Of a DNA stretch of 62,934 bases, positions 2,497 through 53,048 are shown one piece after another. Every line of letters begins with the position of its first letter. Position 1 is the stretch's first letter. The stretch spans positions 1 through 62,934 of the forward strand of contig JADFZK010000012.1 in assembly GCA_015232565.1 (NCBI GenBank). The letters are read 5' to 3'. Origin of the DNA: Candidatus Omnitrophota bacterium (GTDB taxonomy: Bacteria > Omnitrophota > Gorgyraeia > Zapsychrales > Fredricksoniimonadaceae). Under the pieces are notes generated by a model. The model saw only the letters and a program-made list of their open reading frames with translations. It did no database searches and had not been told where the DNA came from. The position numbers were made by a program, and so were the translations under genes.

Positions 2497-4753
2497 GCTG
2501 TTATTAAATTTCGTGTTGATTCTGGCTGCCGCGGCTTTGCTGGCGTGCGGCATGACGGCGTTGGCCAATGCGGAAGTGGCGGCCAAGGCCGTGGCGGAAA
2601 AGACCGTGGGCGGCAAGCCGGCTGGTAATTCGGCCAGCAAGAATTCCACTGGCGTTAAAGCGGCCGGCGCCGAACAGACTGCTGCGGTCGGGGCGCCGTC
2701 GGAAAGCGTTACGCAACAGCCGGTGGAGCTTAACGGCGATAATGTGGAATATAAAGCCGATGAAGGCAAATTTGTGGCTTCCGGTAATGTAGTGGTGCAT
2801 CAGCAGGACGGGGCCACTCTTTATTGCGACCGGATCGAATTCTACCGCGACCGTCAGGAAGGCCGCGCCGACGGCAATGTGGTGCTGGATTCCGACAAGG
2901 GTTCGGTGTGGGCCGAGAAAGCTTTTTACAATTTCAAGACCAAAAAAGGCGAGTTCACCAACGCGCGGATCATGAGCCATCCGGTTTTTGCCCGGGGCGC
3001 TACGATCTCCAAGATCCGCGACAATTACTATGTGATGTCCAACGGTTATTTTACCACCAGCGATTACGATGATCCTGAATGGCGCGTGAAGAGTCGGCAT
3101 ATTGAGGTTTTTCTGGGCGACAAGGCTATAGCGCGGAATTCCACAATGTACCTGGGCGGTGTACCGGTGATGTACATGCCGAAATATGTGCAGGACCTGC
3201 GTAAGAATCGGCCGCATTTCAGTGTGATACCCGGTTACAGCAAGGCCTGGGGCGGCTTCCTGCTGACTAAATATCGGGTTTATCCGGCGGAGGGCGTGGA
3301 GACGGTTTATCATCTGGATTACCGCGAGCGTAAGGGCTGGGGTTACGGCCTGGACGTGGCTCTCACTACTTTGCCGGTAGGGGAAACTCTGGTAAAGAGT
3401 TATTTTCTTAACGAACGGACGATAGGCGCCAAACATATGTGGCAGCCCAAGACCCAGCCCACGCTTTTACGCGAGCGCTATCGCGCCGAGTGGCGGCACA
3501 AGTGGGATATTAATCCTCAAACCAACCTGATACTTCAGTATTATAAATTAAGCGACAGCACTATCCTGAAAGATTACTTTGAGCGGCAGTACCTCGCTGA
3601 ATCCGGGCCGGCTACTTATGGCTTGTTGTCGCATTCCACGGGCACCTCCACAGTTATGTTGAGGATGGACAAGCGCGTTAATCGTTTTGAATCCGCGGTG
3701 GAGCGTTTGCCGGAAGTTTCCTATTCCTGGAACAATCAGCCGATAGGCGATACCGGCTTCTATTTCAAGAGCACGGATGCGGTGGTTCAGCTGGAGCATC
3801 GTATCCCGGGCCCGACCGACCGCGACCATCAGACCGTGCGTTTGGTCTCGGGTAATGAAGTGTCGCGGCCGTTCAAGTTCGGCATTTTGGAATTGCGCCC
3901 TTATACCGGGGCCGAGCATACTTATTACACGCGTACCCTGGACGAACGGAACAATGGCAGTGTGCGCGGGGTCTGGAAGGCGGGGTCCGACCTGAGCACC
4001 AAGTTCTACCGTGTTTACAATGTGCAATTCAACCGGTTCGGTATCGAGGTTAATAAATTACGCCATGTGCTTACGCCCACGGTGGCGTATCAATACCAGC
4101 ATATGCCTACTTTGCCCTCGGAGAAACTGTATCAGTTTGACAGCGTGGATTCGCGCGCCATTGTTAACCGGTTCGCCCTGGGCCTGGAGAGCAAGTTCCA
4201 GACCAAGCGCGAGGGGAAAAGTGTAGACCTTATTCGTTCGCTGTTATCCAGTAATTTTCGTATGCGGGACGATCCCTCCGGCGCCAGTTTCGGCGATGTG
4301 GTGCTGGATAATGAGTTTTACGTCAACAAGTACGTCAAGACTTCGCATGATATAACGTATAACCCTGATACCCAGCGCTTGACTTCGGCCAATATGGAGC
4401 TTAACCTTACCGATACCAATCGCTGGATCTTCGACGTCAGCCGTCGTTATGTGCTGAATTCCGACGATATCGTGACCACCCAGTTGCAGTACAAGTTAAA
4501 TCCGAAATGGCGCACGGTGCTTTATGACCGCTGGAACGCTGACAACGGGCTTCTACAGGAACAGCAGTATTCCCTGGTGCGCGACCTGCATTCCTGGGAG
4601 GTCGAGTTCTCTTATAAAACCTTGAGAGGTTATACCAATTCCGGTTCCGAGGTGTGGGTGATCTTCACGCTCAAGGCTTTCCCGTCGGTAGCTTTTGATG
4701 GCGGTAAAGGTTTTCAGCAAAGAAAAGCCGGGTCGCAGACGCCCGAACTTTAA
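2483..4753 (+). CDS. lptD: LPS-assembly protein LptD (OstA-like N-domain + beta-barrel)
   Basis: Signal peptide; beta-jellyroll-like N-part (GNVV..QQDGATLYCDRIEFY, FTTSDYDDPEWRVKSRHI); long amphipathic beta-strand C-part (YSLVRDLHSWEV). Start placed at ATG 2483. Confidence 0.8.
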   Translation: MKNAKLLLNFVLILAAAALLACGMTALANAEVAAKAVAEKTVGGKPAGNSASKNSTGVKAAGAEQTAAVGAPSESVTQQPVELNGDNVEYKADEGKFVASGNVVVHQQDGATLYCDRIEFYRDRQEGRADGNVVLDSDKGSVWAEKAFYNFKTKKGEFTNARIMSHPVFARGATISKIRDNYYVMSNGYFTTSDYDDPEWRVKSRHIEVFLGDKAIARNSTMYLGGVPVMYMPKYVQDLRKNRPHFSVIPGYSKAWGGFLLTKYRVYPAEGVETVYHLDYRERKGWGYGLDVALTTLPVGETLVKSYFLNERTIGAKHMWQPKTQPTLLRERYRAEWRHKWDINPQTNLILQYYKLSDSTILKDYFERQYLAESGPATYGLLSHSTGTSTVMLRMDKRVNRFESAVERLPEVSYSWNNQPIGDTGFYFKSTDAVVQLEHRIPGPTDRDHQTVRLVSGNEVSRPFKFGILELRPYTGAEHTYYTRTLDERNNGSVRGVWKAGSDLSTKFYRVYNVQFNRFGIEVNKLRHVLTPTVAYQYQHMPTLPSEKLYQFDSVDSRAIVNRFALGLESKFQTKREGKSVDLIRSLLSSNFRMRDDPSGASFGDVVLDNEFYVNKYVKTSHDITYNPDTQRLTSANMELNLTDTNRWIFDVSRRYVLNSDDIVTTQLQYKLNPKWRTVLYDRWNADNGLLQEQQYSLVRDLHSWEVEFSYKTLRGYTNSGSEVWVIFTLKAFPSVAFDGGKGFQQRKAGSQTPEL

Positions 4754-43234: not shown

Positions 43235-43440
43235 GACGTCGCCCAATGCTATGCCAACCGGGGGACATGATGCCCCGCCGCGGACAGCAATGAGCGGGGC
43301 TTCGTGTCCCCCCTAAAGGGGCCAGGGCCAAGCCGCCTGACAACCCCTCTACCAACGAATGTGAAAGCGACCCAGGTCTCAACCCCAACGCCAAACGCCC
43401 CAAACAACGCCAAACACCCCCAAACACCCCCAAACACCCC
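43235..43440. repeat. Palindromic repeat element, intergenic copy with (CAAACACCCC)n tail
   Basis: Matches 44241-44385 and 62867-62934; hairpin GGGACATGATGCCCCGC/GCGGGGCTTCGTGTCCC; three exact CAAACACCCC units at 43411-43440. Confidence 0.8.
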
Positions 43441-43599
43441 ATACGTCTATATATTTAAATTAATACCACAGACCACAGCGACGGAGCGAGAAACTGTTTC
43501 TCGTTTTCTTTCCGCCCCCTTGATTTTCTCCATAATATATTCAATACTTGGCAAAAGAGCCTCGGTGTTTTGGGGTCTGGCAATTTTATAAAGGCGGAA

Positions 43600-46500
43600 A
43601 TGCGCAAGATCATTGTATTTATAACTTTGCTGTGTTTTATGTTCACCGGGAGCGGTGTGCCCGTGGTTCTTGGTGCGCAGGGTAATGTTTTGCCTGCGCC
43701 CGGCCAGATCATGCAATTAAGCCCCGAGTTCCGTCCCGCTGTACTAAAAGGCCTGAAAGTTTATCCGAACTCACCTTTGCGCCTGGACTTTATTGAGGAC
43801 TCCGGTGATCATCGTGAACTGGCGGGGGAGGAAGGTGCGCTGGCCCGCAAGAACGAATCGGCCCGGCTGGTGCAGTATTTTCTGGCCGCTTTGACTACTC
43901 CCGAGAAAGACCTGTGGGTTAATTTGTCGCCGTATGAAGCCGAGCGGATAATTCCGGAGGCCTTCGGCCAGACGGCCATGGGGCGGGATCTGCTGGAGCA
44001 GGATAATGTGCTTAAGCAGATAACCGCGTCTTTGCTTTATCCCGAAGGAGACACGGGCAAGGTCTTCTGGCAGAAAGTGTATGCCGCGGCATACGCTAAA
44101 TATGGCACCACCGACATGCCGTTCGATACCTTCAACAAAGTCTGGATCGTACCACAATATGCGAAAGTTTATGAGCATGGTGACACCGCCTTCATAGTGA
44201 ATGCCAAATTAAAATTAATGCTGGAGAAAGACTATTTAGCGACGTCGACCAATGCTATGCCAACCCTGGGACATGATGCCCCGCCAGCGGATACCAATGA
44301 GCGGGGCTTCGTGTCCCAAAGCCGGCTGCCAACCCCTCAACCAACGAATGTGAAAGCAACCCAGGTCTCAACCCCAACGCCCAACCACCCAAGTGCCCCA
44401 AGTACCCCAAACCAACAAAACGACATTGCCCGGGACGTCCTGCGCGAGGTTGTGATCCCGGTACTGGAACATGAGGTTAATGAGGGCGCTAATTTTGCCC
44501 CTTTGCGTCAGGTGTACGCCTCGCTGATCCTGGCCCTGTGGTACAAACAGCGCATGAGGCACGACCTCCTGGGCCGGGAATATGCCGACCGGAATAAAGT
44601 TTCCGGCATCGAGATCGGGGAGAAAGACGCTAAATCCCGGGTTTATCAAAGCTATCTGCAGGCTTTTCGGCAGGGTGTTTATAACTACATAAAAGAAGAG
44701 GCCGATCCGGGTACCGGTGAGATTATTCCGCGCAAATATTTCTCCGGCGGGTTTCTGGTTCCTACGGGCTTTAACATTGACCTGGACGCCAGTGCGGCCG
44801 GCAATGATATGCGCGTAAAAGCCGGCCAGCTTCTGGTAGTTGATCTGGGGACCGATAACGGTCCGGGCGTTGAGGAACAACCGGCAAGAGCCGCACGATC
44901 GCTAAGGCCCTGGGGTCTCATCAGGCGGGTAAGGTCCGGCAAAGAGACGGCTGAGCAGCGCGATAATGCCGCGTTCTCGGAAGAGGCCTTGACGCATCCT
45001 TTGGCCAAGGAAATTTACGGCAAGATAAAAGAAGCGGTGGGCGGGTTGGCGCAAGATGCTTTGGTGAAAGGTCCGCTGGCGGATCTGCAGGAGTTGTTTC
45101 AGTCTATGACGGACAATGAGTGGCGTTTGCTGGCAGGTGTGCCGGATTATTTTCGGGAGCATTTATATTCCAGCGATTCTGTTCCGCAGGATGTTTCTGC
45201 GGATGGTGTTGCTCTGGACCTGAGAACGCTATTGGAGGCTATGGGGACTGCTTTTGACCGGCTGACGACCTTGGAGAATTCGGGGGTATTCTCTGGCGAG
45301 ATACAGGCTTTCTTCGACCGGAATGTGGCGTTAGATGTTTATGTGCGGGCAGAAGACCTTGAGCAGGAAGTAATGCATGCCGGACGACGTATTCTGGGCA
45401 TGTATGTTAAAGGCAAGATCAATTTAGCGGAAGCCGAGCTATTGCTTCAGGAATGGACCAATAAGCTTTACCGGAATCGTCAGCAACTAGGCGCTGTTTT
45501 ACAAGCTCTGGATCTGCCGGGAACTTCGGTTACTAAAGAGATCCGCCAGCTTACGGTGCGAGTATTGGGGTTTGCCGATGAAAAACAGATAATTATTGCT
45601 CCGAGTGTATCCGGTTTGGCCTGGTTCTTGTGGTCGGGCTTGGATATTGATCATAAGCATCAGGGAAGCGCTTTTAGCCTGATGGATGAACAGGGAAGGA
45701 GTGTGCCGGTTGCGGTGGTGGCGGGTGATCAAAGGCCTTTTCATTTAGCCAGGGTCATAATTCATGAGGCATCCCATATGGAGTCGGATAAAAGAGAGGA
45801 AATGAATACGGAATTTGAGCGTGTTTTAAATGAGGGTTTTCAGGCCTACCGGGAATATGCTATTTGGAAAAAGGTCATGGAAGCGGCAGGTGAGGACTTG
45901 AGGGTCAATATGCTTGAGATGATCAATGCCGAGTATAAGGTAAAAACTGCTGGTCAGAGTGGCTATCCAATTGTGCGAATAGCTTTGTCTAAACTTGCTG
46001 TGTTATTGCAGAATACTTCCTATGTATGGGAGAACAGGATCGTGCGGCAGCTCTTGACGTTTATTATTCAGAAGCCGCAAATAAGCCTTGAGGGAGGAGC
46101 GGACAACCCGGAGCTTAAGGCGGTCTTTTTGAAAAGAGATTTTGGAAGATTGCGCGCCGCACTGGGGCCTAACCGGTTTGAGGTTATAAGTTCTATTGTT
46201 AATCGCTGGGCACCTGCGGTGTCGAGTAATGGCGGCATAAGGAGCTTTGTGATGAGTGAATGGGTGTTAAGTTCGGCGTTGTTGGTCCCGGGCGAAGATG
46301 TTTCTGAGGAAATAGCCGCCAAAATATCTAAAGTCAGAATGGTTTTAGGTGAGGAATTCAATTCGCCCAAGGTTCCTTTTAAAGGACCGTATGTAGTAGA
46401 TAAAGTAAAGTGGCCGGCGGATCTGGTGAAGGAATTTGTGGCGGTAACCAGCCGCTATCTGACCGATGAGATTACATTGGACCAATGTCGGGCATTGTTC

Positions 46501-46776
46501 GTGCAGATCCGGGACCGGTCCCAGGCGGCCGATCCTTCGGCGGTTGCTGGCCAGCCGGGCGCCCTGGACAGTGCGGCCGATATGCGTTTGGAGAAAGGCG
46601 GTATCGACTTCTCCGCGGAGCGTACCAGGCTGGACGTGAGTTCTGACCCTGCCGGGAGTGGCCGGTTATTCAACCCGGAGGCTTTACCGGAGGTTGGAAT
46701 CGACCGTCTTTACATCAAGAGTATTAACGTCCGTCCTTTGGTAAATCTGCCGCAAATGTTAGGCCTGCCGGGATAA
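43600..46776 (+). CDS. Modular exported protein A (conserved N-domain + gluzincin-like cargo + GGID C-module)
   Basis: Signal-like N-terminus; LWVNLSPYE, MGRDLLEQD, FNKVWIVP, IPRKYFSGG; HEASH-x18-E (LNEGF); GGIDF. Confidence 0.85.
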   Translation: MRKIIVFITLLCFMFTGSGVPVVLGAQGNVLPAPGQIMQLSPEFRPAVLKGLKVYPNSPLRLDFIEDSGDHRELAGEEGALARKNESARLVQYFLAALTTPEKDLWVNLSPYEAERIIPEAFGQTAMGRDLLEQDNVLKQITASLLYPEGDTGKVFWQKVYAAAYAKYGTTDMPFDTFNKVWIVPQYAKVYEHGDTAFIVNAKLKLMLEKDYLATSTNAMPTLGHDAPPADTNERGFVSQSRLPTPQPTNVKATQVSTPTPNHPSAPSTPNQQNDIARDVLREVVIPVLEHEVNEGANFAPLRQVYASLILALWYKQRMRHDLLGREYADRNKVSGIEIGEKDAKSRVYQSYLQAFRQGVYNYIKEEADPGTGEIIPRKYFSGGFLVPTGFNIDLDASAAGNDMRVKAGQLLVVDLGTDNGPGVEEQPARAARSLRPWGLIRRVRSGKETAEQRDNAAFSEEALTHPLAKEIYGKIKEAVGGLAQDALVKGPLADLQELFQSMTDNEWRLLAGVPDYFREHLYSSDSVPQDVSADGVALDLRTLLEAMGTAFDRLTTLENSGVFSGEIQAFFDRNVALDVYVRAEDLEQEVMHAGRRILGMYVKGKINLAEAELLLQEWTNKLYRNRQQLGAVLQALDLPGTSVTKEIRQLTVRVLGFADEKQIIIAPSVSGLAWFLWSGLDIDHKHQGSAFSLMDEQGRSVPVAVVAGDQRPFHLARVIIHEASHMESDKREEMNTEFERVLNEGFQAYREYAIWKKVMEAAGEDLRVNMLEMINAEYKVKTAGQSGYPIVRIALSKLAVLLQNTSYVWENRIVRQLLTFIIQKPQISLEGGADNPELKAVFLKRDFGRLRAALGPNRFEVISSIVNRWAPAVSSNGGIRSFVMSEWVLSSALLVPGEDVSEEIAAKISKVRMVLGEEFNSPKVPFKGPYVVDKVKWPADLVKEFVAVTSRYLTDEITLDQCRALFVQIRDRSQAADPSAVAGQPGALDSAADMRLEKGGIDFSAERTRLDVSSDPAGSGRLFNPEALPEVGIDRLYIKSINVRPLVNLPQMLGLPG
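44241..44415 (+). repeat. Palindromic repeat element inserted in frame in protein A
   Basis: Encodes ATSTNAMPTLGHDAPPADTNERG...PTNVKATQVSTPTPN, absent from paralogues B and C. Confidence 0.8.
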
Positions 46777-46837: not shown

Positions 46838-46902
46838 TTTTGCCCCAAACGCCCTTCTCAAATGCCATTTTGTAGTAAATACTTGTTACGGGAGTGGATA
46901 CT

Positions 46903-49900
46903 ATGGCTAAACGGACGTTAAGGTCACAGGGTGCTTTTGATCCGGATCGTTTTATTGCCAGATCCGGTTTTGATCGGCTGCGTTTTGCCCGGCTGGTCCT
47001 GGGTTGGCTTTTTCTTTTTCAGGCTTTTTGTCCGCCTGGTTTGGCCGGAGCGGCTGGTGTGCCGGCGCTGACTTTGCCGGCAGTTACCCTGGCCGGGGGC
47101 GTAAAGCCGTTTGAACCTTGTCGGCTTAAGGGCCTGCGCATTCATCAGGACAATGCTTTTCGCCTGGACTTCCTTATTGATACCGGCAGTTCCACAGCGC
47201 CCAATGATATTAACGAAGAGAAAATATCCCGGCAGGTGCGCTATTTTATGGCGGCGCTGACCATGCCTCAGCGCGAGCAGTGGGTGAACCTATCCCCGTA
47301 TGAGCAGGAACGGATAATGCCGGAAGCTTTTTCCCTTACCGAAATGGGCCGTGATCTGCTGGAACAGGATTATTTGCTTAAAAAGATCACCGCGTCCTTG
47401 CATGATCCCAAGAGTGAGGCCGGCAAGATCTTTTGGCAGAAAGTTTATGCCCGGGTCTTTGACAAGTATGGCACTACCGATATCCCGCTGGATACTTTTA
47501 ACAAGGTCTGGATAGTGCCGGACCTGGCGGTGGTCGAGGAAAAAGGATTTGTGGCTGTTATTAAGGAAAGCCACCTGAAGGTCCTGCTGGAAACAGATTA
47601 CGTCAAGCTGGGCCTGGGCGGAGCCGTAAACCATCCGGAAGAAAATATTGCTGACCTTACGCCCGGCATTGTGCGCGATGTGGCACGCGAGGTGCTTATT
47701 CCCATGATCGAGGAAGAAGTGAACCGCGGTGCGGCGTTTGCTCTTTTGCGTCAGGTGTATAGTTCTATGATCCTGGCGGTTTGGTATAAGGAAGTGATGT
47801 TGCAGAGGCTTCTGGGTCGGGATTATGTGGATCGGCAGAAAGTGAGTGGGATAGACCAGGTCGAGCCCGAGGCCAAGCAGGCGATCTATGAGCGTTATAT
47901 AGAATTATTTAAAAAAGGCGTGGTGAACATGGTGCAGGAGGAATACGACCCGTTTACCAGCGAGATGATTCCGCGCAAGTATTTCTCCGGCGGTTTTGAT
48001 CCATCCCAAATGTCATTAAAACGTATAGCCGCTTCGGCGCTGTCTTTGGGGTTGGTGGGGGCGGCTTTAGTGGCGCGCTTTGATTTAAGTTCGCAAAAAT
48101 CCGGCCAGAGCGGGCCGGCAGCTAAGCCGGCATCGGTAGCGTCGGTAACAAATATGCCGGCCATGACTCCGGAACAGGAGCGTCAGGTAGAAGTTTTTCA
48201 TGATGAGTTGTTAAAGATGCAGGGTGATGTACGGGCCATCGATTGGGGGCGGGATATTATTCTCCGTCCGGGGGTGGCGCCGCAGTACAAGGTGATAGCG
48301 TTCAAGATGTTGTGTGCTGTTATCCTTTCCCAGTCGGAAAGCATTAGCGGGGTGGGTGGTAAAATGCTGGGGCCGATCGAGGCGCTGGACGATAGTATCA
48401 GTCGGCAGGCTTTGGCCCGGGTGATGGATATCCTGGCGCGTAACGACCCGTTATTGTATGAACACGCCACGGAACATGTTGTTTACGTGATGCAATATCT
48501 TCATGATAATAACCCGGCGCTGTTGCGGTCATTTTTTGAGAAGATCGAGCTTAAGAATGTGGTGCATTTGATAGCCAAAGGCAACGGGCTCTACGCGATG
48601 GATTTCCGGACTACTTACAAATTGTATCATGACAGCCTGCAAAAATGGACTCGCTTGAACGGGACGCGGACACTGGGAGTGGAAGAATTCCTGAATAGCG
48701 TGGGCCTGCAGGGCATGGACATGGTGCCTTTTGTGGCCAATCTGGCGGCGTATGGATATTTGGATGATCTGATAAGCGACTCTCCGCTGGTTTTTGTGAA
48801 GGCCTTGCCGGGTTTGTGTTCCAAAGCGAACGAGAAAAGTTTTATCCTCGCCGCTCCGGCTTTGCAGAAAATGCTGCGTACGGAACGGGACGGGCGGATA
48901 AAAGGGATCCTTTGGCAGGTTTATGCCCGTTTGGGAACCAATGTGCCGGAAGCATTAAAGCAATTTATGCGCCTGAATGCGGACGTGTTCTTTGCCGGCG
49001 CGCCGGTGAAAGAGCGCACCGGACCGCTGGCCGAAATACAAGCCGGGGTGTCCCAGGCCGAGCTGGATTCGTTCCAGAAGGTGCCGTACTGGCAGATAGT
49101 AAATAAAGGGGTAATAAATGTCGGGGTGGCTTTTCAGGAATCTTCTTTGGCATATATCGAGCTGTTGAAGAAGCAAATGATAGCGCAGGGCTTCTCGGTG
49201 ACCCCGGGAAAGAAAAAACAGCAGTTCGAGGCGCGCTGGAAAGGCAAGATGTATTCCCTGCGGGTGATAGTGGGCAATGTGGATACTATTGTTGATTCAG
49301 AGCGGGCCGGTGTGTCGTTTGGCGTTGTATCTGCGCGGGGGCATTCTACCGAGATCAAGGATACAATGGAGGCGCTGTTTGGGCTTAAGAATGAGCGCGT
49401 TTTTGTTGGGGCGCCGGGGTCTTGCGCCAGCCGAAAGGTTTTGTATGATCTGTTGCATTCTTATCCCAATTCCCAATGGATAGTGCGTTCGGGACCAGAT
49501 AATGGTAATGACGCCAATTATTTGCTGGCGGGAACAAGCAAACGGAAGGGGGTCTTGCAAGCCCTGGCCGATGGGGTTCCAACATGGAAAGCCGCCAGTG
49601 AACAGTATTTGCCGCAGAACAGGTTTTCGTCGTATACGGATCCGGTGGCTTATTTGACCAGCCAGGCCAATAGCAAAGCGCCTTTGCCGCGTCTGTTGAC
49701 TGCTAATAATTATCCTTCAGACCATGGCCAGCTGACCCCCGGTGGTATCGACCTTAATCCGGCGACCCTGGCTCTTCAGCGGCAGGGTAATCTGAATTCT
49801 GCCGAGATCAGTCCGGCCATGGATAATGCCATGAATGTAGAAAGTTTGTACCCGGTCATGGTGGAAATGTACCCGCTGGGCGCGCAGTCTTTCGGGCAGA

Positions 49901-49908
49901 ATCCATGA
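46903..49908 (+). CDS. Modular exported protein B (conserved N-domain + putative His/Cys peptidase-like cargo + GGID C-module)
   Basis: GGAG RBS; TM/signal; WVNLSPYE, MGRDLLEQDY, FNKVWIVP, IPRKYFSGG; ARGHS...PGSCAS; GGIDL. Confidence 0.85.
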   Translation: MAKRTLRSQGAFDPDRFIARSGFDRLRFARLVLGWLFLFQAFCPPGLAGAAGVPALTLPAVTLAGGVKPFEPCRLKGLRIHQDNAFRLDFLIDTGSSTAPNDINEEKISRQVRYFMAALTMPQREQWVNLSPYEQERIMPEAFSLTEMGRDLLEQDYLLKKITASLHDPKSEAGKIFWQKVYARVFDKYGTTDIPLDTFNKVWIVPDLAVVEEKGFVAVIKESHLKVLLETDYVKLGLGGAVNHPEENIADLTPGIVRDVAREVLIPMIEEEVNRGAAFALLRQVYSSMILAVWYKEVMLQRLLGRDYVDRQKVSGIDQVEPEAKQAIYERYIELFKKGVVNMVQEEYDPFTSEMIPRKYFSGGFDPSQMSLKRIAASALSLGLVGAALVARFDLSSQKSGQSGPAAKPASVASVTNMPAMTPEQERQVEVFHDELLKMQGDVRAIDWGRDIILRPGVAPQYKVIAFKMLCAVILSQSESISGVGGKMLGPIEALDDSISRQALARVMDILARNDPLLYEHATEHVVYVMQYLHDNNPALLRSFFEKIELKNVVHLIAKGNGLYAMDFRTTYKLYHDSLQKWTRLNGTRTLGVEEFLNSVGLQGMDMVPFVANLAAYGYLDDLISDSPLVFVKALPGLCSKANEKSFILAAPALQKMLRTERDGRIKGILWQVYARLGTNVPEALKQFMRLNADVFFAGAPVKERTGPLAEIQAGVSQAELDSFQKVPYWQIVNKGVINVGVAFQESSLAYIELLKKQMIAQGFSVTPGKKKQQFEARWKGKMYSLRVIVGNVDTIVDSERAGVSFGVVSARGHSTEIKDTMEALFGLKNERVFVGAPGSCASRKVLYDLLHSYPNSQWIVRSGPDNGNDANYLLAGTSKRKGVLQALADGVPTWKAASEQYLPQNRFSSYTDPVAYLTSQANSKAPLPRLLTANNYPSDHGQLTPGGIDLNPATLALQRQGNLNSAEISPAMDNAMNVESLYPVMVEMYPLGAQSFGQNP

Positions 49909-50015: not shown

Positions 50016-53000
50016 ATGGACACAATTAAACGCTTTATTGCTGTATTAATTTTGGTGCCGTTTTTGCTGACCACGGTTACTCCGGTGGCAATGTCGGCGG
50101 ACTTGCCCTGGATGCCCCAGCCGGGCGCTATGGTGGGTTTGAGCGCGCCTTTTGTGCCGGCTCATCTTTGGGGCATGACCATCAAGCCCAATGAGCCTTT
50201 TAAGTTCGATTTTCTGGTTAAAAAAGGCGATGTGCTTCTTAATGAGGAGCAGAAACGAAGTGAATATTCCCGGCTCATCAAGTATTTCCTGGCCGCCCTG
50301 GCCATTCCGGATACCGATCAATGGGTGAACCTTTCGCCGTATGAACAAAACCGGATCGTTCCTGACAATTTCGGCCTTACCGAGATGGGCCGTGATCTTT
50401 TGGCGCAGGATTATCTGTTAAAACAGCTTTCTTCGTCTCTGACCGATCCGGGCAGTGAGTTGGGCCAGAAGTTTTGGGCTAATGTGTATGAGGAAGCTCA
50501 TAAGCGTTTCGGTACCACCGATGTGCCCGCCGATATGTATAGCAAGGTTTGGATAACTCCCGACAAAGCGGTGGTTTATGAAAAGAATAATACTGTTTAT
50601 ATACTGGAAAGTCATTTGAAGGTCATGACCGAGCAAGATTACCTGGCTGCTCAGCACAATAGCGCGGTCTCGCCGGCGGTCGTGCCCGATTCCCAGGCCA
50701 GGGAGTTGGCCGATATTTCTTCCCGGGTCTTGAAAGAGGTGATCATTCCCGCTATTGAGAAAGAAGTGAACGAGGGCAAAAGTTTTGCGCCTTTACGGCA
50801 GGTTTACAGCGGGATGCTTTTGGCTACCTGGTACAAGAAGGCCTTGAAAGAGTCAATTCTGGGCAAGCTATACGCCGACCGGAGTAAAGTTAAGGGCGTC
50901 GACCAGGATCCCCGTGCCAACCAGGAAATTTACGGCAAGTATGTTGAAGCGTTCAAAAAAGGCGTCTTTAACCTGATAAAAGAAGATGTGGACCGCAATA
51001 CCCAGGAAGTAATTCCGCGGAAGTATTTTTCCGGTGGATTTGACAATGCTTCGGCGGCGGTTATGAGCAAGGCAGACAATGTTGCGATAGTTGATCAAGC
51101 GCTTTCTAACGCCAGAGGAGGAAACACCGAGGTCGTGGAAGCCGATCTGGCGCGGGCCAATCAATTGGAGTGGAAGAGGCTTTACGGACGGCTTAATGGG
51201 TTAACGCCAGGCTCCAGGGTGAGTTTTAATTATGAAATGAAATACGGAACAGGAGAGACTGCGAGCGCTAAAGTTTCTGGTCAGGTGGTGGCTATTAATC
51301 CGGATAATGCTTTGCAGTTGAGAGTGACGAAAAGGGGTTCAAAGAGAACGGAATTGGAATGGTATAATTTCAGTAGAATTCAAGATAGTGTTTTGACTTT
51401 TGGAGTTCCCGGAGCGTCAGACGTGCCTAATGTGCCAGCCTCTGCAAATGACGGAGCGGCGGCGGTGTCGTTGTCGGACCGAATGATGGATGTGCCCCCG
51501 AGGGTTACAGTAATATCGGAAGCCATTCGTATTTTCAAGCGGTTGCCGGGTGCGCGTGGTTCGGACTTGAGCGTGGAGTTTCCTGCAAAATATAAGGGAG
51601 TTACGATTGAAGATGTTGGCGGCGTTTCGTACCTGATGTGGCGTAATAAAAAAGGAATACCGGAGAGGCTGGGGCAAGTTAAGTTTGGAAGATACGATAC
51701 TGAGGTTCATTCATATGTTCCCGATATGCTTTTAAGCGCCAGATTAAACAGGTCGGTTAAAAGCCGGGTTTTGTTGTCTGGGCAGGGAAGTCCGCTTAGG
51801 AAGACTTTGGCGCAACAGTGGTTAATGGAGCCGCAGGTATTGAAAAATGATGAGCCGATCGAGCACCGTTTGGGAGTAACGAAAGGACAGGGCGTGCGGT
51901 ATCTTTTTGAACTTCCTCCTGGCTATACGGATGGGAGAGTTCAACACGAGGATGATAAAGAATACATTATGGCCACCGATCCGCGGGGTATTCGCCGGAC
52001 CATGGGCTGGATAAGTGCTCATTTGGGGTCGGTGGAGGCGGTGCATTCCAATGTTAATGGCTTGCTTTGGGCGGCCCGGGCTAATGATACCGGCAAGACC
52101 AGTTTTAGCGTTCTGCCCAGCATGTTTGATAGAGATGAGAGGTCGTTAAAAAAGAGGCTTGCTCAGGAGTGGTTGTTTGAGCCGAAGTGGTATATTATGA
52201 ATGATGGTTATTCTGATCTACGGGTTGGAAAAGAAATTGTGGAGCAGATAGTTGAGCTTCCTTTGGGTTATTCCGACGGACGCATTGATATTAATGAATT
52301 TAATCTGCCTGTTGTGAGCGCGCGTTACAAAGGCGGCAAGCGTAGCGTCGTGGCTATATTTGAGTCTGGGGACATAATCAAGTTTAAGTCTATGATCGCT
52401 CACCTTGTTGTGGCGGCCAGAATTGTTAAGACCGGCAAGAGCCGGGTAGTTTTGGCTGGTAAAGATCGTCCATTAAGTCAGAGGATGTCCAGGGAGTGGC
52501 ATACGGAGCCGCAACAGGTTGGCTCGAATAAGACTGAGTGGGTTGCCACAAGAGTGCGCAGATGGCCAGGGATTGAGGTAGTGATTGAGGTTCCGGACTT
52601 ATATAGCGAACCGTTTCTAGTTAGCAACAAAAGCTTGGAAGGCGGATCATTTATCAAAGCATATAACAAGGCGGGAAGAATTGTTCCTTTGGGTCGGATC
52701 AACCTTACACGAACCAAACATCTTATGGTGCATTCATATGTTGAAGGCTTGATTTTTGCGATCAAGGATACTACTGAAACCAAGAATGTTAATGTGGTTT
52801 TGCAGTCCAGCGATAAGGCCGCGGGTGATGCAGATGCGGCAGTCACGACGGTGGCCGCCAAGGCGCCTACCGGCGGTATCGACCTGGCGCAATCCGCTTT
52901 GAGTATGCAGATCAAACGCGACGGGGCGGGCGTACCCCTGCCGGTCAGTCAGCAAGACCTGGACAGTATTCATATCGAAGGCCTGGTACCGGTGATCACC

Positions 53001-53048
53001 GGCATCCGGTCGGCCGTCAACGCGCCGCAGTTCTCGGCCTTGCCGTAA
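50016..53048 (+). CDS. Modular exported protein C (conserved N-domain + 4x ~112-aa repeat cargo + GGID C-module)
   Basis: Signal peptide; WVNLSPYE, MGRDLLAQDY, KVWITP, IPRKYFSGG; internal repeats; GGIDL. Confidence 0.85.
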   Translation: MDTIKRFIAVLILVPFLLTTVTPVAMSADLPWMPQPGAMVGLSAPFVPAHLWGMTIKPNEPFKFDFLVKKGDVLLNEEQKRSEYSRLIKYFLAALAIPDTDQWVNLSPYEQNRIVPDNFGLTEMGRDLLAQDYLLKQLSSSLTDPGSELGQKFWANVYEEAHKRFGTTDVPADMYSKVWITPDKAVVYEKNNTVYILESHLKVMTEQDYLAAQHNSAVSPAVVPDSQARELADISSRVLKEVIIPAIEKEVNEGKSFAPLRQVYSGMLLATWYKKALKESILGKLYADRSKVKGVDQDPRANQEIYGKYVEAFKKGVFNLIKEDVDRNTQEVIPRKYFSGGFDNASAAVMSKADNVAIVDQALSNARGGNTEVVEADLARANQLEWKRLYGRLNGLTPGSRVSFNYEMKYGTGETASAKVSGQVVAINPDNALQLRVTKRGSKRTELEWYNFSRIQDSVLTFGVPGASDVPNVPASANDGAAAVSLSDRMMDVPPRVTVISEAIRIFKRLPGARGSDLSVEFPAKYKGVTIEDVGGVSYLMWRNKKGIPERLGQVKFGRYDTEVHSYVPDMLLSARLNRSVKSRVLLSGQGSPLRKTLAQQWLMEPQVLKNDEPIEHRLGVTKGQGVRYLFELPPGYTDGRVQHEDDKEYIMATDPRGIRRTMGWISAHLGSVEAVHSNVNGLLWAARANDTGKTSFSVLPSMFDRDERSLKKRLAQEWLFEPKWYIMNDGYSDLRVGKEIVEQIVELPLGYSDGRIDINEFNLPVVSARYKGGKRSVVAIFESGDIIKFKSMIAHLVVAARIVKTGKSRVVLAGKDRPLSQRMSREWHTEPQQVGSNKTEWVATRVRRWPGIEVVIEVPDLYSEPFLVSNKSLEGGSFIKAYNKAGRIVPLGRINLTRTKHLMVHSYVEGLIFAIKDTTETKNVNVVLQSSDKAAGDADAAVTTVAAKAPTGGIDLAQSALSMQIKRDGAGVPLPVSQQDLDSIHIEGLVPVITGIRSAVNAPQFSALP

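What the first reader, a model, noticed from the sequence alone, without database searches (positions are those of the whole stretch)
45763..45843. Cargo of protein A carries a complete gluzincin motif HExxH-x18-E with LNEGF
Seen: VIIHEASHMESDKREEMNTEFERVLNEGF, with exactly 18 residues between the second His and Glu. Known: HExxH-x18-E and the NEG motif are hallmarks of M1-type gluzincins. Inference: an exported zinc protease effector in an otherwise unrecognisable helical domain.
Basis: partly seen in the sequence, partly recalled or inferred. Interest (0 to 1): 0.65.

Follow-up and report, generated by a model that had tools for sequence, protein, structure and literature searches.

The report
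Conserved zinc-protease motif in Omnitrophota cargo
The HExxH...E motif is real and is the best-conserved feature of a rare, uncatalogued domain found only in exported proteins of Omnitrophota bacteria, so it most likely marks a new kind of secreted zinc protease rather than a member of the known M1 aminopeptidase family.

Summary
HEASH lies at 45763-45777, and exactly 18 residues later comes Glu in LNEGF, within gene 43600-46776 (+). The motif is not chance. Nine distant homologues (17-25% identity) share only six invariant columns with protein A, and five of them are H, E, H, E and G of the motif.

Features specific to M1 are not conserved. The spacer varies (17, 18, 21, 24, 33), the Asn of "NEG" varies, GXMEN is absent, and Pfam Peptidase_M1 scores 12 bits against a cut-off of 27.7. 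A shuffle control shows that similarity to E. coli PepN is confined to about 38 residues around the motif.

An AlphaFold2 model (pLDDT 72) gives the element order strand, helix, hairpin, HExxH helix, Glu helix. This fits the zincin/gluzincin layout, but Foldseek found no significant match and I had no coordinates to measure clustering of the ligands.

Protein A has a signal peptide and no other hydrophobic segment. Several homologues place the domain directly behind a signal peptide. Protein A is one of about 60 paralogues in a 2.6 Mb Omnitrophota genome that share an N-domain, a variable cargo and a GGID tail.

Verdict: probably an exported gluzincin-type metallopeptidase of an undescribed family. 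Its activity, substrate and any "effector" role are untested.

The parts
43600..46776 (+). Gene for protein A. It is 1058 aa from the ATG at 43600. An upstream in-frame TTG at 43570 would give 1068 aa.
   Evidence: ORF list and translation. The database protein P0005 is 1058 aa and 100% identical.
43600..43677 (+). Predicted Sec signal peptide (MRKIIVFITLLCFMFTGSGVPVVLGA). It is the only hydrophobic segment in the protein.
   Evidence: Kyte-Doolittle scan: one peak, at residues 2-20, and none elsewhere. The cleavage site is inferred from the sequence.
43696..44754 (+). Conserved N-terminal domain of the Omnitrophota carrier family (WVNLSPYE ... IPRKYFSGGF). It includes a ~60-aa insert that proteins B and C lack.
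   Evidence: Alignment of A, B and C. 124 matches in the own genome. 445 confirmed loci in Omnitrophota MAGs. No Pfam, NCBIfam or PDB sequence match.
44755..45372 (+). N-terminal part of the cargo. It is an orphan sequence, predicted helical at low confidence, and contains D-x-A-A-type linker-like motifs (DASAAGNDM at 44785-44811, RDNAAF at 44959-44976).
   Evidence: No paralogue in the own genome. Homologue matches begin around cargo residues 156-228. The single-sequence model has pLDDT 37.7.
45373..46290 (+). Zincin-like domain (306 aa modelled). It is shared with 9 distant homologues, and no curated family covers it.
   Evidence: Homologues. Alignments A3 and A5. AlphaFold2 pLDDT 72.2, pTM 0.69. 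No Pfam or PHROG family for any member.
45586..45723 (+). Predicted strand (model residues 72-75), 'backing' helix (77-88) and beta-hairpin (98-104, 110-117) that precede the active-site helix. It contains the invariant Gly and the conserved Asp (QGSAFSLMDEQG, 45661-45696).
   Evidence: DSSP of the model. G98 is invariant and D105 is conserved in the closer members.
45763..45777 (+). HEASH. These are the two proposed zinc-ligand His residues and the general-base Glu, at the C-terminal end of model helix 122-136.
   Evidence: H131, E132 and H135 are invariant in 10 sequences.
45832..45855 (+). EGFQAYRE. It contains the proposed third zinc ligand (Glu, 45832-45834) on the following helix, and it is the signature of this family.
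   Evidence: E154 and G155 are invariant. Q157 and E161 are conserved in at least 90% of sequences. Helices 147-155 and 157-171.
46018..46056 (+). SYVWENRIVRQLL. This is a conserved Y-x-x-E-x-x-x-V segment in a downstream helix. The Tyr is a candidate transition-state-stabilising residue; this is speculative.
   Evidence: Conserved in A3. hhalign placed it on PepN Tyr381, but the shuffle control shows that part of the alignment is not significant.
46597..46773 (+). C-terminal GGID tail module of the carrier family, preceded by DSAADM (46567-46584).
   Evidence: Alignment of A, B and C. 46 of the 60 family ORFs in the genome have GG[IV]D within the last 90 residues.

Best explanation
The cargo of protein A contains the catalytic domain of an undescribed family of gluzincin-type zinc metallopeptidases. 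By analogy with thermolysin and M1-type enzymes, H732 and H736 on the active-site helix and E755 on the next helix would bind one zinc ion. E733 would activate the zinc-bound water. The beta-hairpin just upstream would hold the substrate as an extra strand.

The protein has a Sec signal peptide and no membrane anchor between the carrier N-domain and the cargo. The protease domain therefore ends up outside the cytoplasm, joined to the N-domain and the GGID tail that about 60 paralogues in this Omnitrophota genome share.

Shown here: the motif, its conservation, the secondary-structure order, the export signal and the family context. Inferred: zinc binding, peptidase activity, and the site of action (periplasm, cell surface, medium or another cell). 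The substrate is unknown.
For: 1. The motif is present exactly as described.
2. An exhaustive HMMER search of 1.84 billion representatives found only 3 homologues of the cargo. A profile search of 401 Omnitrophota genomes found the domain in 8 genomes. A metagenome scan added one more locus.
3. In the 10-sequence alignment (17-25% identity to A) the invariant columns are G98, H131, E132, H135, E154 and G155. Q157 and E161 are conserved in at least 90%.
4. The homology extends over 170-260 residues with E-values of 1e-10 to 1e-33, so it does not rest on the motif alone.
5. AlphaFold2 on that alignment gave pLDDT 72.2 and pTM 0.69. The element order is strand, helix, hairpin, helix carrying HExxH, helix carrying the Glu. 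This is the order described for zincins and gluzincins: backing helix, active-site helix, glutamate helix (PMC9002140).
6. An unbiased hhalign scan of the profile against 2583 ORF pieces of the own genome ranked only zinc peptidases at the top, all aligned on their HExxH. They are M48, an ImmA/IrrE-like protein (identified by eye from its sequence) and Peptidase_MA_2. The best P was 1.3e-5.
7. hhalign against E. coli PepN gave P = 5.9e-4 with HExxH and Glu in register, and P = 4e-4 against a 23-sequence M1 profile.
8. Export: protein A has a single N-terminal hydrophobic segment. Homologues L083, L084 and P0007 carry the domain directly behind a signal peptide.
9. HExxH is about 10-fold enriched in the cargos of the carrier family: 8 observed against 0.8 expected. 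One of these cargos is a Pfam M48 peptidase.
Against: - No significant structural match. The best Foldseek E-value was 1.5 against PDB (aureolysin only at E = 5.8) and 0.14 against BFVD.
- No curated family reaches threshold. Peptidase_M1 gives only 12 bits, and there is no PDB sequence hit.
- The model has only moderate confidence and rests on 10 sequences.
- I had no coordinates, so clustering of His/His/Glu could not be measured.
- The shuffle control shows that similarity to M1 comes almost entirely from a 38-residue window around the motif.
- The weakest candidate homologue (L088, E = 0.007) has QETAY in place of HExxH.
- There are no expression data and no biochemistry.
Confidence: 0.68

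Rival explanations
1. It is a divergent member of the M1 aminopeptidase family. That would make it an exopeptidase with the M1 catalytic apparatus.
For: - This copy has HExxH-x18-E and LNEGF.
- The only Pfam hint is Peptidase_M1, E = 0.12-0.14, on the motif.
- hhalign to PepN and to an M1 profile gives P = 4e-4 to 6e-4, with the catalytic Tyr381 opposite a conserved Tyr.
Against: - GXMEN is absent: the position 22-38 residues upstream reads LMDEQ, and only the Asp is conserved (M1 signature from PMC2241622).
- The spacer is 18 in only 2 of 10 members.
- The Asn of NEG is not conserved.
- Pfam gives 12 bits against a cut-off of 27.7.
- The shuffle control shows nothing significant outside a 38-residue window: 9 of 150 shuffles reach the real score.
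- The M1 N-terminal beta domain and C-terminal helical domain are absent.
- The Pfam M1 model finds nothing in this genome at E <= 1e-5.
Confidence: 0.05
2. The zincin domain is a processing protease for the carrier family itself. It would cut protein A or its paralogues, in cis or in trans, at the short Asp-x-Ala-Ala/Met-like linkers that flank the cargos, as autoprocessing domains do in multidomain toxins. It would not act on foreign substrates.
For: - Linker-like motifs flank the cargo (DASAAGNDM, RDNAAF, DSAADM).
- HExxH modules are enriched in the family's cargos.
- Unchecked notes from earlier agents of this scan describe D-x-A-M linkers between modules in other genomes.
Against: - Only 8 of 60 paralogues carry any HExxH, and this particular domain occurs once in the genome and in 8 of 401 genomes. 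It cannot be a general maturation factor for the family.
- The same domain also occurs as a stand-alone secreted protein without the carrier frame (L084).
Confidence: 0.12
3. It is a zincin-fold domain that binds metal but is not a peptidase. It could be another kind of hydrolase or a metal-dependent binding module.
For: - There is no significant match to any characterised peptidase family or structure.
- The signature residues Q157, Y159, R160 and E161 (EGFQxYRE) have no assigned role.
Against: Complete retention of HExxH plus a downstream Glu is, as far as I know, nearly always associated with peptide-bond hydrolysis. All the top profile hits in the own genome are peptidase families.
Confidence: 0.1
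4. The motif is a chance occurrence in a structural helical domain and has no catalytic meaning.
For: - HExxH occurs 47 times in this genome's long ORFs.
- There is no database family and no fold match.
Against: - Five of the six invariant columns across 10 highly diverged homologues are the motif residues.
- Only 0.0011 occurrences are expected in this protein.
Confidence: 0.04

Closest known systems
Gluzincins, MEROPS clan MA(E): thermolysin-type zinc metallopeptidases in general
   Same: HExxH lies on a helix preceded by a small beta-sheet and a backing helix. An invariant Glu lies on the next helix, 17-33 residues downstream. Both are secreted. This matches the architecture described in PMC9002140 and the model.
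   Different: There is no significant sequence or fold match to any member. The signature after the Glu is EGFQxYRE. The spacer length varies within the family.
Peptidase family M1 (aminopeptidase N / LTA4 hydrolase; Pfam PF01433)
   Same: This copy has HExxH-x18-E and LNEGF, close to the M1 consensus. There is a local profile similarity across the active-site and glutamate helices (P about 5e-4).
   Different: - It has no GXMEN.
- The x18 spacer and the Asn are not conserved among homologues.
- It scores below the Pfam threshold.
- It lacks the flanking M1 domains.
- Similarity outside about 38 residues is not significant.
Peptidase_MA_2 (Pfam PF13485), small secreted 'MA superfamily' peptidases. 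Two are encoded in this genome (contigs C56 and C70).
   Same: Both have HExxH-x18-(E)EG-x-A/Q-x-Y/L-x-E, with the Glu-Gly in register and no gaps. Both are small secreted proteins with a signal peptide.
   Different: There is no Pfam hit. hhalign gives only P = 0.005-0.01 over 35 columns.
Peptidase family M48 (HtpX/BepA-like; Pfam PF01435)
   Same: This is the best profile hit in the own genome: C34, probability 80.6%, P = 1.3e-5, over the active-site helix and the following helix. Another paralogue of the carrier family carries an M48 cargo.
   Different: Only 53 columns align. Our Glu ligand is aligned to Lys in the M48 protein. The M48 upstream NAF..PG and downstream E..AD motifs are absent.
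Giant and very long exported proteins of Omnitrophota with embedded peptidase and other enzyme domains ('Archaeovorins' and related; bioRxiv 10.1101/2023.11.21.568195 and 10.64898/2026.06.07.730766)
   Same: Same phylum. Both are exported multidomain proteins that carry hydrolase or peptidase modules. Homologues of this domain sit inside ORFs of 2807-14636 aa.
   Different: Those papers report C39, S8 and other Pfam-recognised peptidases. In the passages I searched, neither this HExxH...EGFQ domain nor the N-domain/GGID carrier frame is described.

Membership tests
Peptidase family M1 | Zinc-binding signature HEXXH-X18-E | tested here: met
   Present in protein A. Within its own homologue set, however, the spacers are 17, 18, 18, 21 (five times), 24 and 33, so x18 is not a family feature.
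Peptidase family M1 | GXMEN exopeptidase motif 22-38 residues upstream of HEXXH (PMC2241622) | tested here: not met
   The corresponding position reads SLMDEQG. Only the Asp is conserved among homologues, and Gly, Met, Glu and Asn are not.
Peptidase family M1 | Score above the Pfam PF01433 gathering threshold (27.7 bits) | tested here: not met
   12.2-12.4 bits, E = 0.12-0.14, for 1 of 10 members, and only across the motif. The PF01433 search of the own genome found no match at E <= 1e-5.
Peptidase family M1 | Similarity across the whole catalytic domain, including the catalytic Tyr | tested here: inconclusive
   hhalign aligns 102-190 columns with a conserved Tyr opposite PepN Tyr381. However, 9 of 150 shuffles that preserve only the 38-residue motif window reach the real score.
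Gluzincins (clan MA(E)) | HExxH conserved, with a conserved downstream Glu as third ligand | tested here: met
   H131, E132, H135 and E154 are invariant in 10 sequences at 17-25% identity.
Gluzincins (clan MA(E)) | Fold: mixed beta-sheet, backing helix, active-site helix, glutamate helix | tested here: inconclusive
   The order of elements in the AF2 model fits (pLDDT 72). Foldseek gives no significant hit in PDB or BFVD. Only weak local hits to SprT-like and IrrE-like zincins were seen.
Gluzincins (clan MA(E)) | The three ligands converge on one metal site, and zinc is bound | not testable with these tools
There is no biochemistry.
Gluzincins (clan MA(E)) | Zinc-dependent peptide-bond hydrolysis | not testable with these tools
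   This needs expression and an assay.
Peptidase_MA_2 (PF13485) | Score above the Pfam gathering threshold (32.4 bits) | tested here: not met
   No hit for protein A or any homologue. Genuine members in the same genome score 46-55 bits.
Peptidase family M48 (PF01435) | Pfam threshold, and a third ligand in the downstream E..AD region | tested here: not met
   There is no Pfam hit. The hhalign match covers 53 columns only and puts Lys opposite our Glu.
Omnitrophota carrier ('N-domain / cargo / GGID tail') protein family; uncurated | Signal peptide, ~330-360-aa N-domain ending in IPRKYFSGG, variable middle, and a C-terminal GGID module | tested here: met
   All four features are present in protein A. 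There are 60 family ORFs in the own genome, 46 of them with the tail. The family is found in Omnitrophota MAGs.

The most novel reading that the evidence does not exclude
This domain founds a previously unrecognised gluzincin family (HExxH-x17-33-EGFQxYRE) that is essentially restricted to exported and giant proteins of Omnitrophota. In protein A it is one interchangeable 'warhead' of a phylum-specific carrier system (signal peptide, N-domain, cargo, GGID tail). These ultra-small, possibly predatory or host-dependent bacteria would use that system to place proteases and other enzymes on or into other cells.
Probability: 0.25. Interest if true: 0.65.

Novelty: new variant of a known kind. Interest (0 to 1): 0.4.

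Why it matters
If the domain is active, it adds a new family to the zinc metallopeptidases (clan MA). It also gives a first functional handle on one cargo of a very large, uncharacterised exported protein family that takes up roughly 8-9% of this Omnitrophota genome (76,029 aa in 60 ORFs). Omnitrophota are uncultured and are suspected of living on other cells. A secreted protease with a simple E-to-Q control is one of the few parts of this 'dark' proteome that could be tested directly in E. coli. The motif itself is textbook chemistry, so the surprise lies in the family and its context, not in the mechanism.

Tried and rejected
- Pfam and NCBIfam on full proteins A, B and C gave nothing.
- A PDB sequence search with the protein and with profiles gave nothing.
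- The word-indexed protein search with the cargo found only itself. With the 10-sequence alignment it found nothing.
- tblastn of the cargo against the own genome found no paralogue.
- Single-sequence AlphaFold2 gave pLDDT 37.7 and was unusable.
The 5-sequence alignment gave one locus.
- Foldseek against PDB and BFVD gave no significant hits.
- PHROGs gave nothing. Pfam on all 10 members gave only scattered sub-threshold zincin hints: M1, DUF6782, eCIS_core, M50B.
- A search for public sequencing runs found none.
- M1 membership was considered and rejected (see the membership test).
- M48 affinity was considered. It is the best local profile hit, but the Glu ligand is not aligned, so I treat it as generic active-site-helix similarity.
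- I looked for model coordinates to measure ligand distances. None are exposed.
Full report
**1. The observation**

Window 45763-45843 (+) translates to HEASHMESDKREEMNTEFERVLNEGFQ. The opposite strand has a stop codon. The stretch lies in a 1068-codon ORF, 43570-46776. The public protein for this gene starts at the ATG at 43600 and is 1058 aa (P0005).

From the protein's own composition, 0.016 HExxH are expected, and 0.0011 with Glu at +18. This is the only HExxH in 21,622 aa of long + strand ORFs in the window. Genome-wide, ORFs of at least 200 aa hold 47 HExxH and only four HExxH-x18-E. Two of those four are genuine Pfam Peptidase_MA_2 proteins.

**2. Context**

- The window is contig C29 of a 2.64 Mb, 80-contig genome. 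The nearest relatives of the protein's N-terminal domain are all in Omnitrophota MAGs; some are labelled 'uncultured Planctomycetales'.
- Protein A is followed by two paralogues, B (46894-49908) and C (50016-53048). All three share an N-terminal hydrophobic leader, a domain of about 330-360 aa ending in IPRKYFSGGF, and a tail of about 60 aa beginning GGID. Their middles are unrelated.
- The N-domain gives 124 matches in this genome. A signature scan finds 60 ORFs totalling 76,029 aa, 46 of them with the GGID tail.
- None of A, B or C matches any Pfam or NCBIfam model. An N-domain profile finds nothing among PDB sequences.
- Earlier unchecked notes of this scan describe the same carrier family in other Omnitrophota genomes. 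I treat that only as agreement with what I saw here.
- Two preprints on Omnitrophota giant proteins mention embedded peptidases (C39, S8 and others). In the passages I searched, they do not describe this domain or this frame.

**3. Is the motif conserved?**

- The cargo has no paralogue in its own genome and no word-sharing relative among 5.8 billion proteins.
- An exhaustive phmmer search of 1.84 billion representatives found three homologues. They are a 4428-aa protein (E = 9.7e-10, 31% identity), a 642-aa protein and a 545-aa fragment.
- A profile search of 401 Omnitrophota genomes found the domain in 8 genomes. None of them is in the same genus or family. The hits sit in ORFs of 452, 1508, 2807, 3395, 3983, 4432 and 14,636 aa. 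A metagenome scan added one locus.
- The matches cover 170-260 residues with E-values down to 1e-33, so the homology does not rest on the motif alone.
- In the 8- and 10-sequence alignments (17-25% identity to A) the invariant columns are G98, H131, E132, H135, E154 and G155. Q157 and E161 are conserved in at least 90%. Five of the six invariant positions are the proposed catalytic residues. The family signature is HE[AGSVIL][SA]H ... R/K-x3-EG[FYL]Q-x-[YQAN]-x-E.
- The spacer between the second His and the Glu is 17, 18, 18, 21 (five times), 24 and 33. The residue before the Glu is N, I, G, V, I, A, R, L, Y and N across the ten sequences (N only in protein A and L087). So 'exactly 18' and 'NEG' are properties of this copy, not of the family.
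- The weakest candidate (L088, E = 0.007) reads QETAY at the site. It may be a degenerate relative or a false hit.

**4. Structure**

- The single-sequence prediction failed (pLDDT 37.7).
- With the 10-sequence alignment, AlphaFold2 gave pLDDT 72.2 and pTM 0.69 for the 306-residue domain.
- The element order is: four helices; strand 72-75; helix 77-88; strands 98-104 and 110-117; helix 122-136, carrying HExxH at 131-135; helices 147-155 and 157-171, carrying E154; then further helices.
- This order matches the description of zincins and gluzincins: a mixed sheet whose edge strand binds substrate, a backing helix, the active-site helix, and then the glutamate helix that opens the C-terminal subdomain (PMC9002140).
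- The domain is therefore alpha/beta, not purely helical.
- Foldseek found nothing significant in PDB (best E = 1.5; aureolysin at E = 5.8) or in BFVD (best E = 0.14). Several weak local BFVD hits are SprT-like and IrrE-like minimal zincins. I take this as a hint only.
- Model coordinates are not exposed.

**5. Which known family?**

- Pfam gives only a sub-threshold Peptidase_M1 hit on the motif: 12 bits against a cut-off of 27.7, for 1 of 10 members. PHROGs gives nothing.
- hhalign of the family profile against E. coli PepN gives P = 5.9e-4 over 190 columns, with HExxH, the Glu and Tyr381 in register. Against a 23-sequence M1 profile it gives P = 4e-4, probability 35%.
- I ran three shuffle controls on the PepN catalytic segment. 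The real score is 29.4.

| Shuffle | Mean score | SD | Shuffles reaching the real score |
|---|---|---|---|
| Whole segment shuffled | 13.5 | 2.3 | 0 of 150 |
| Only the 7 motif residues kept | 14.2 | 2.8 | 0 of 150 |
| 38-residue motif window kept | 26.6 | 1.4 | 9 of 150 |

- The similarity to M1 is therefore real but local. It covers the active-site and glutamate helices. The rest of the catalytic domain adds nothing significant.
- The M1 signature GXMEN-X22-38-HEXXH-X18-E (PMC2241622) is not met upstream. The position reads LMDEQ, and only the Asp is conserved.
- As an unbiased test, I aligned the profile to all 2583 pieces of ORFs of at least 200 aa in the own genome.
  - The best non-self hit is an M48 peptidase (P = 1.3e-5, probability 80.6%, 53 columns).
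  - Eleven of the twelve best non-self hits align on an HExxH. Those I inspected include a second and third M48 protein, an ImmA/IrrE-like protein, and two Peptidase_MA_2 proteins (Pfam confirmed for the best M48 hit and both Peptidase_MA_2 proteins; the others were identified by eye from their sequences).
  - In the M48 alignment our Glu faces a Lys. In the Peptidase_MA_2 and PepN alignments it faces the ligand Glu without gaps.
- My reading is that the domain belongs with the clan MA gluzincins. Its zinc-site signature is most like M1 and Peptidase_MA_2, but it is not a member of any curated family.

**6. Localisation and likely role**

- Protein A has one hydrophobic segment, the N-terminal leader, and none between the N-domain and the cargo. 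The cargo therefore follows the N-domain across the cytoplasmic membrane.
- In L083, L084 and P0007 the same domain sits directly behind a signal peptide. In L084 it is essentially a stand-alone secreted protein of about 445 aa.
- HExxH is about ten times more frequent in the family's cargos than composition predicts: 8 observed against 0.8 expected. One of these cargos is a Pfam M48 peptidase. Zinc-protease modules are thus a recurrent cargo type.
- The most likely mechanism is a secreted, zinc-dependent endopeptidase. H732, H736 and E755 would hold the metal, and E733 would act as general base.
- Whether it acts on environmental proteins, on prey or host surfaces, or on the carrier proteins themselves is not known. 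The word 'effector' is not supported by any evidence here.

**7. Verdict**

The domain looks like a new, rare family within a well-known kind of enzyme, so its interest is moderate. The surrounding carrier family is the more unusual feature, and it is the subject of other findings.

Noticed in passing
G000 contigs; many contig ends, e.g. C31:45, C9:41, C34:42, C39:36, C60:47 and C24, C15, C68, C47, C27, C61, C45, C72, C14: More than 20 contigs of this assembly begin or end inside the carrier N-domain at the same position (query residues 74-76, the WVNLSPYE region). The roughly 60 paralogues share a DNA stretch conserved enough to break the assembly there. The copy number is therefore a lower bound, and some listed ORFs are halves of one gene.
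   Followed up: no
window 48025-48081 (protein B residues 378-396): Protein B has a strongly hydrophobic, TM-like segment (IAASALSLGLVGAALVARF) immediately after its N-domain. A and C have none. In the genome, 19 family members have at least one such segment after the N-domain and 32 have none. The cargos of different paralogues may therefore lie on different sides of a membrane.
   Followed up: partly
L089 (metagenome contig Ga0182027_10000146), frame 1, residues about 196, 524 and 1062 of the locus translation: One long ORF carries three separate HExxH modules. The middle one belongs to the family studied here (HEASH-x21-EGFQRYREY). The other two (LAHELGHVW and AVHELAHIL) are different zincin-like motifs.
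   Followed up: no
G000 contigs C12, C43, C62, C65, C78 (cargos of other carrier-family paralogues): HExxH motifs with the typical hydrophobic lead-in (LLFHEFQHLF, FAVAHEMAHWW, GIIFHEMRHIM, NMHEMRHVA, VILLHEQPHFL) occur in five other cargos. Only the C62 cargo is recognised by Pfam, as Peptidase_M48 with E = 2.2e-5. The others may be further uncatalogued zincin modules.
   Followed up: partly
window 44785-44811, 44959-44976, 46567-46584: Short Asp-x-Ala-Ala-type motifs (DASAAGNDM, RDNAAF, DSAADM) sit just after the N-domain, inside the early cargo, and just before the GGID tail. Protein C has similar ones (DNASAAVM, DADAAV). Earlier unchecked notes of this scan call such motifs module linkers or possible cleavage sites.
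   Followed up: no
P0006 = G078:C3, ORF of 4432 aa (L081): The closest homologue of the domain lies at residues about 3450-3700 of a 4428-aa signal-peptide-bearing protein. That protein has no Pfam match at E <= 0.01 anywhere along its length.
   Followed up: no
L088 (G362:C56), residues about 590-610 of the locus ORF: The weakest candidate homologue (E = 0.007) has QETAY where the others have HExxH. It is either a degenerate, non-catalytic relative or a false positive.
   Followed up: partly
window 43259-43423: An intergenic fragment upstream of gene A matches residues 191-239 of the query used for protein A's N-domain (67% identity) and contains an in-frame TGA. That query stretch corresponds to the insert that A has and that B and C lack. 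Another finding of this scan treats it as a repeat element.
   Followed up: no
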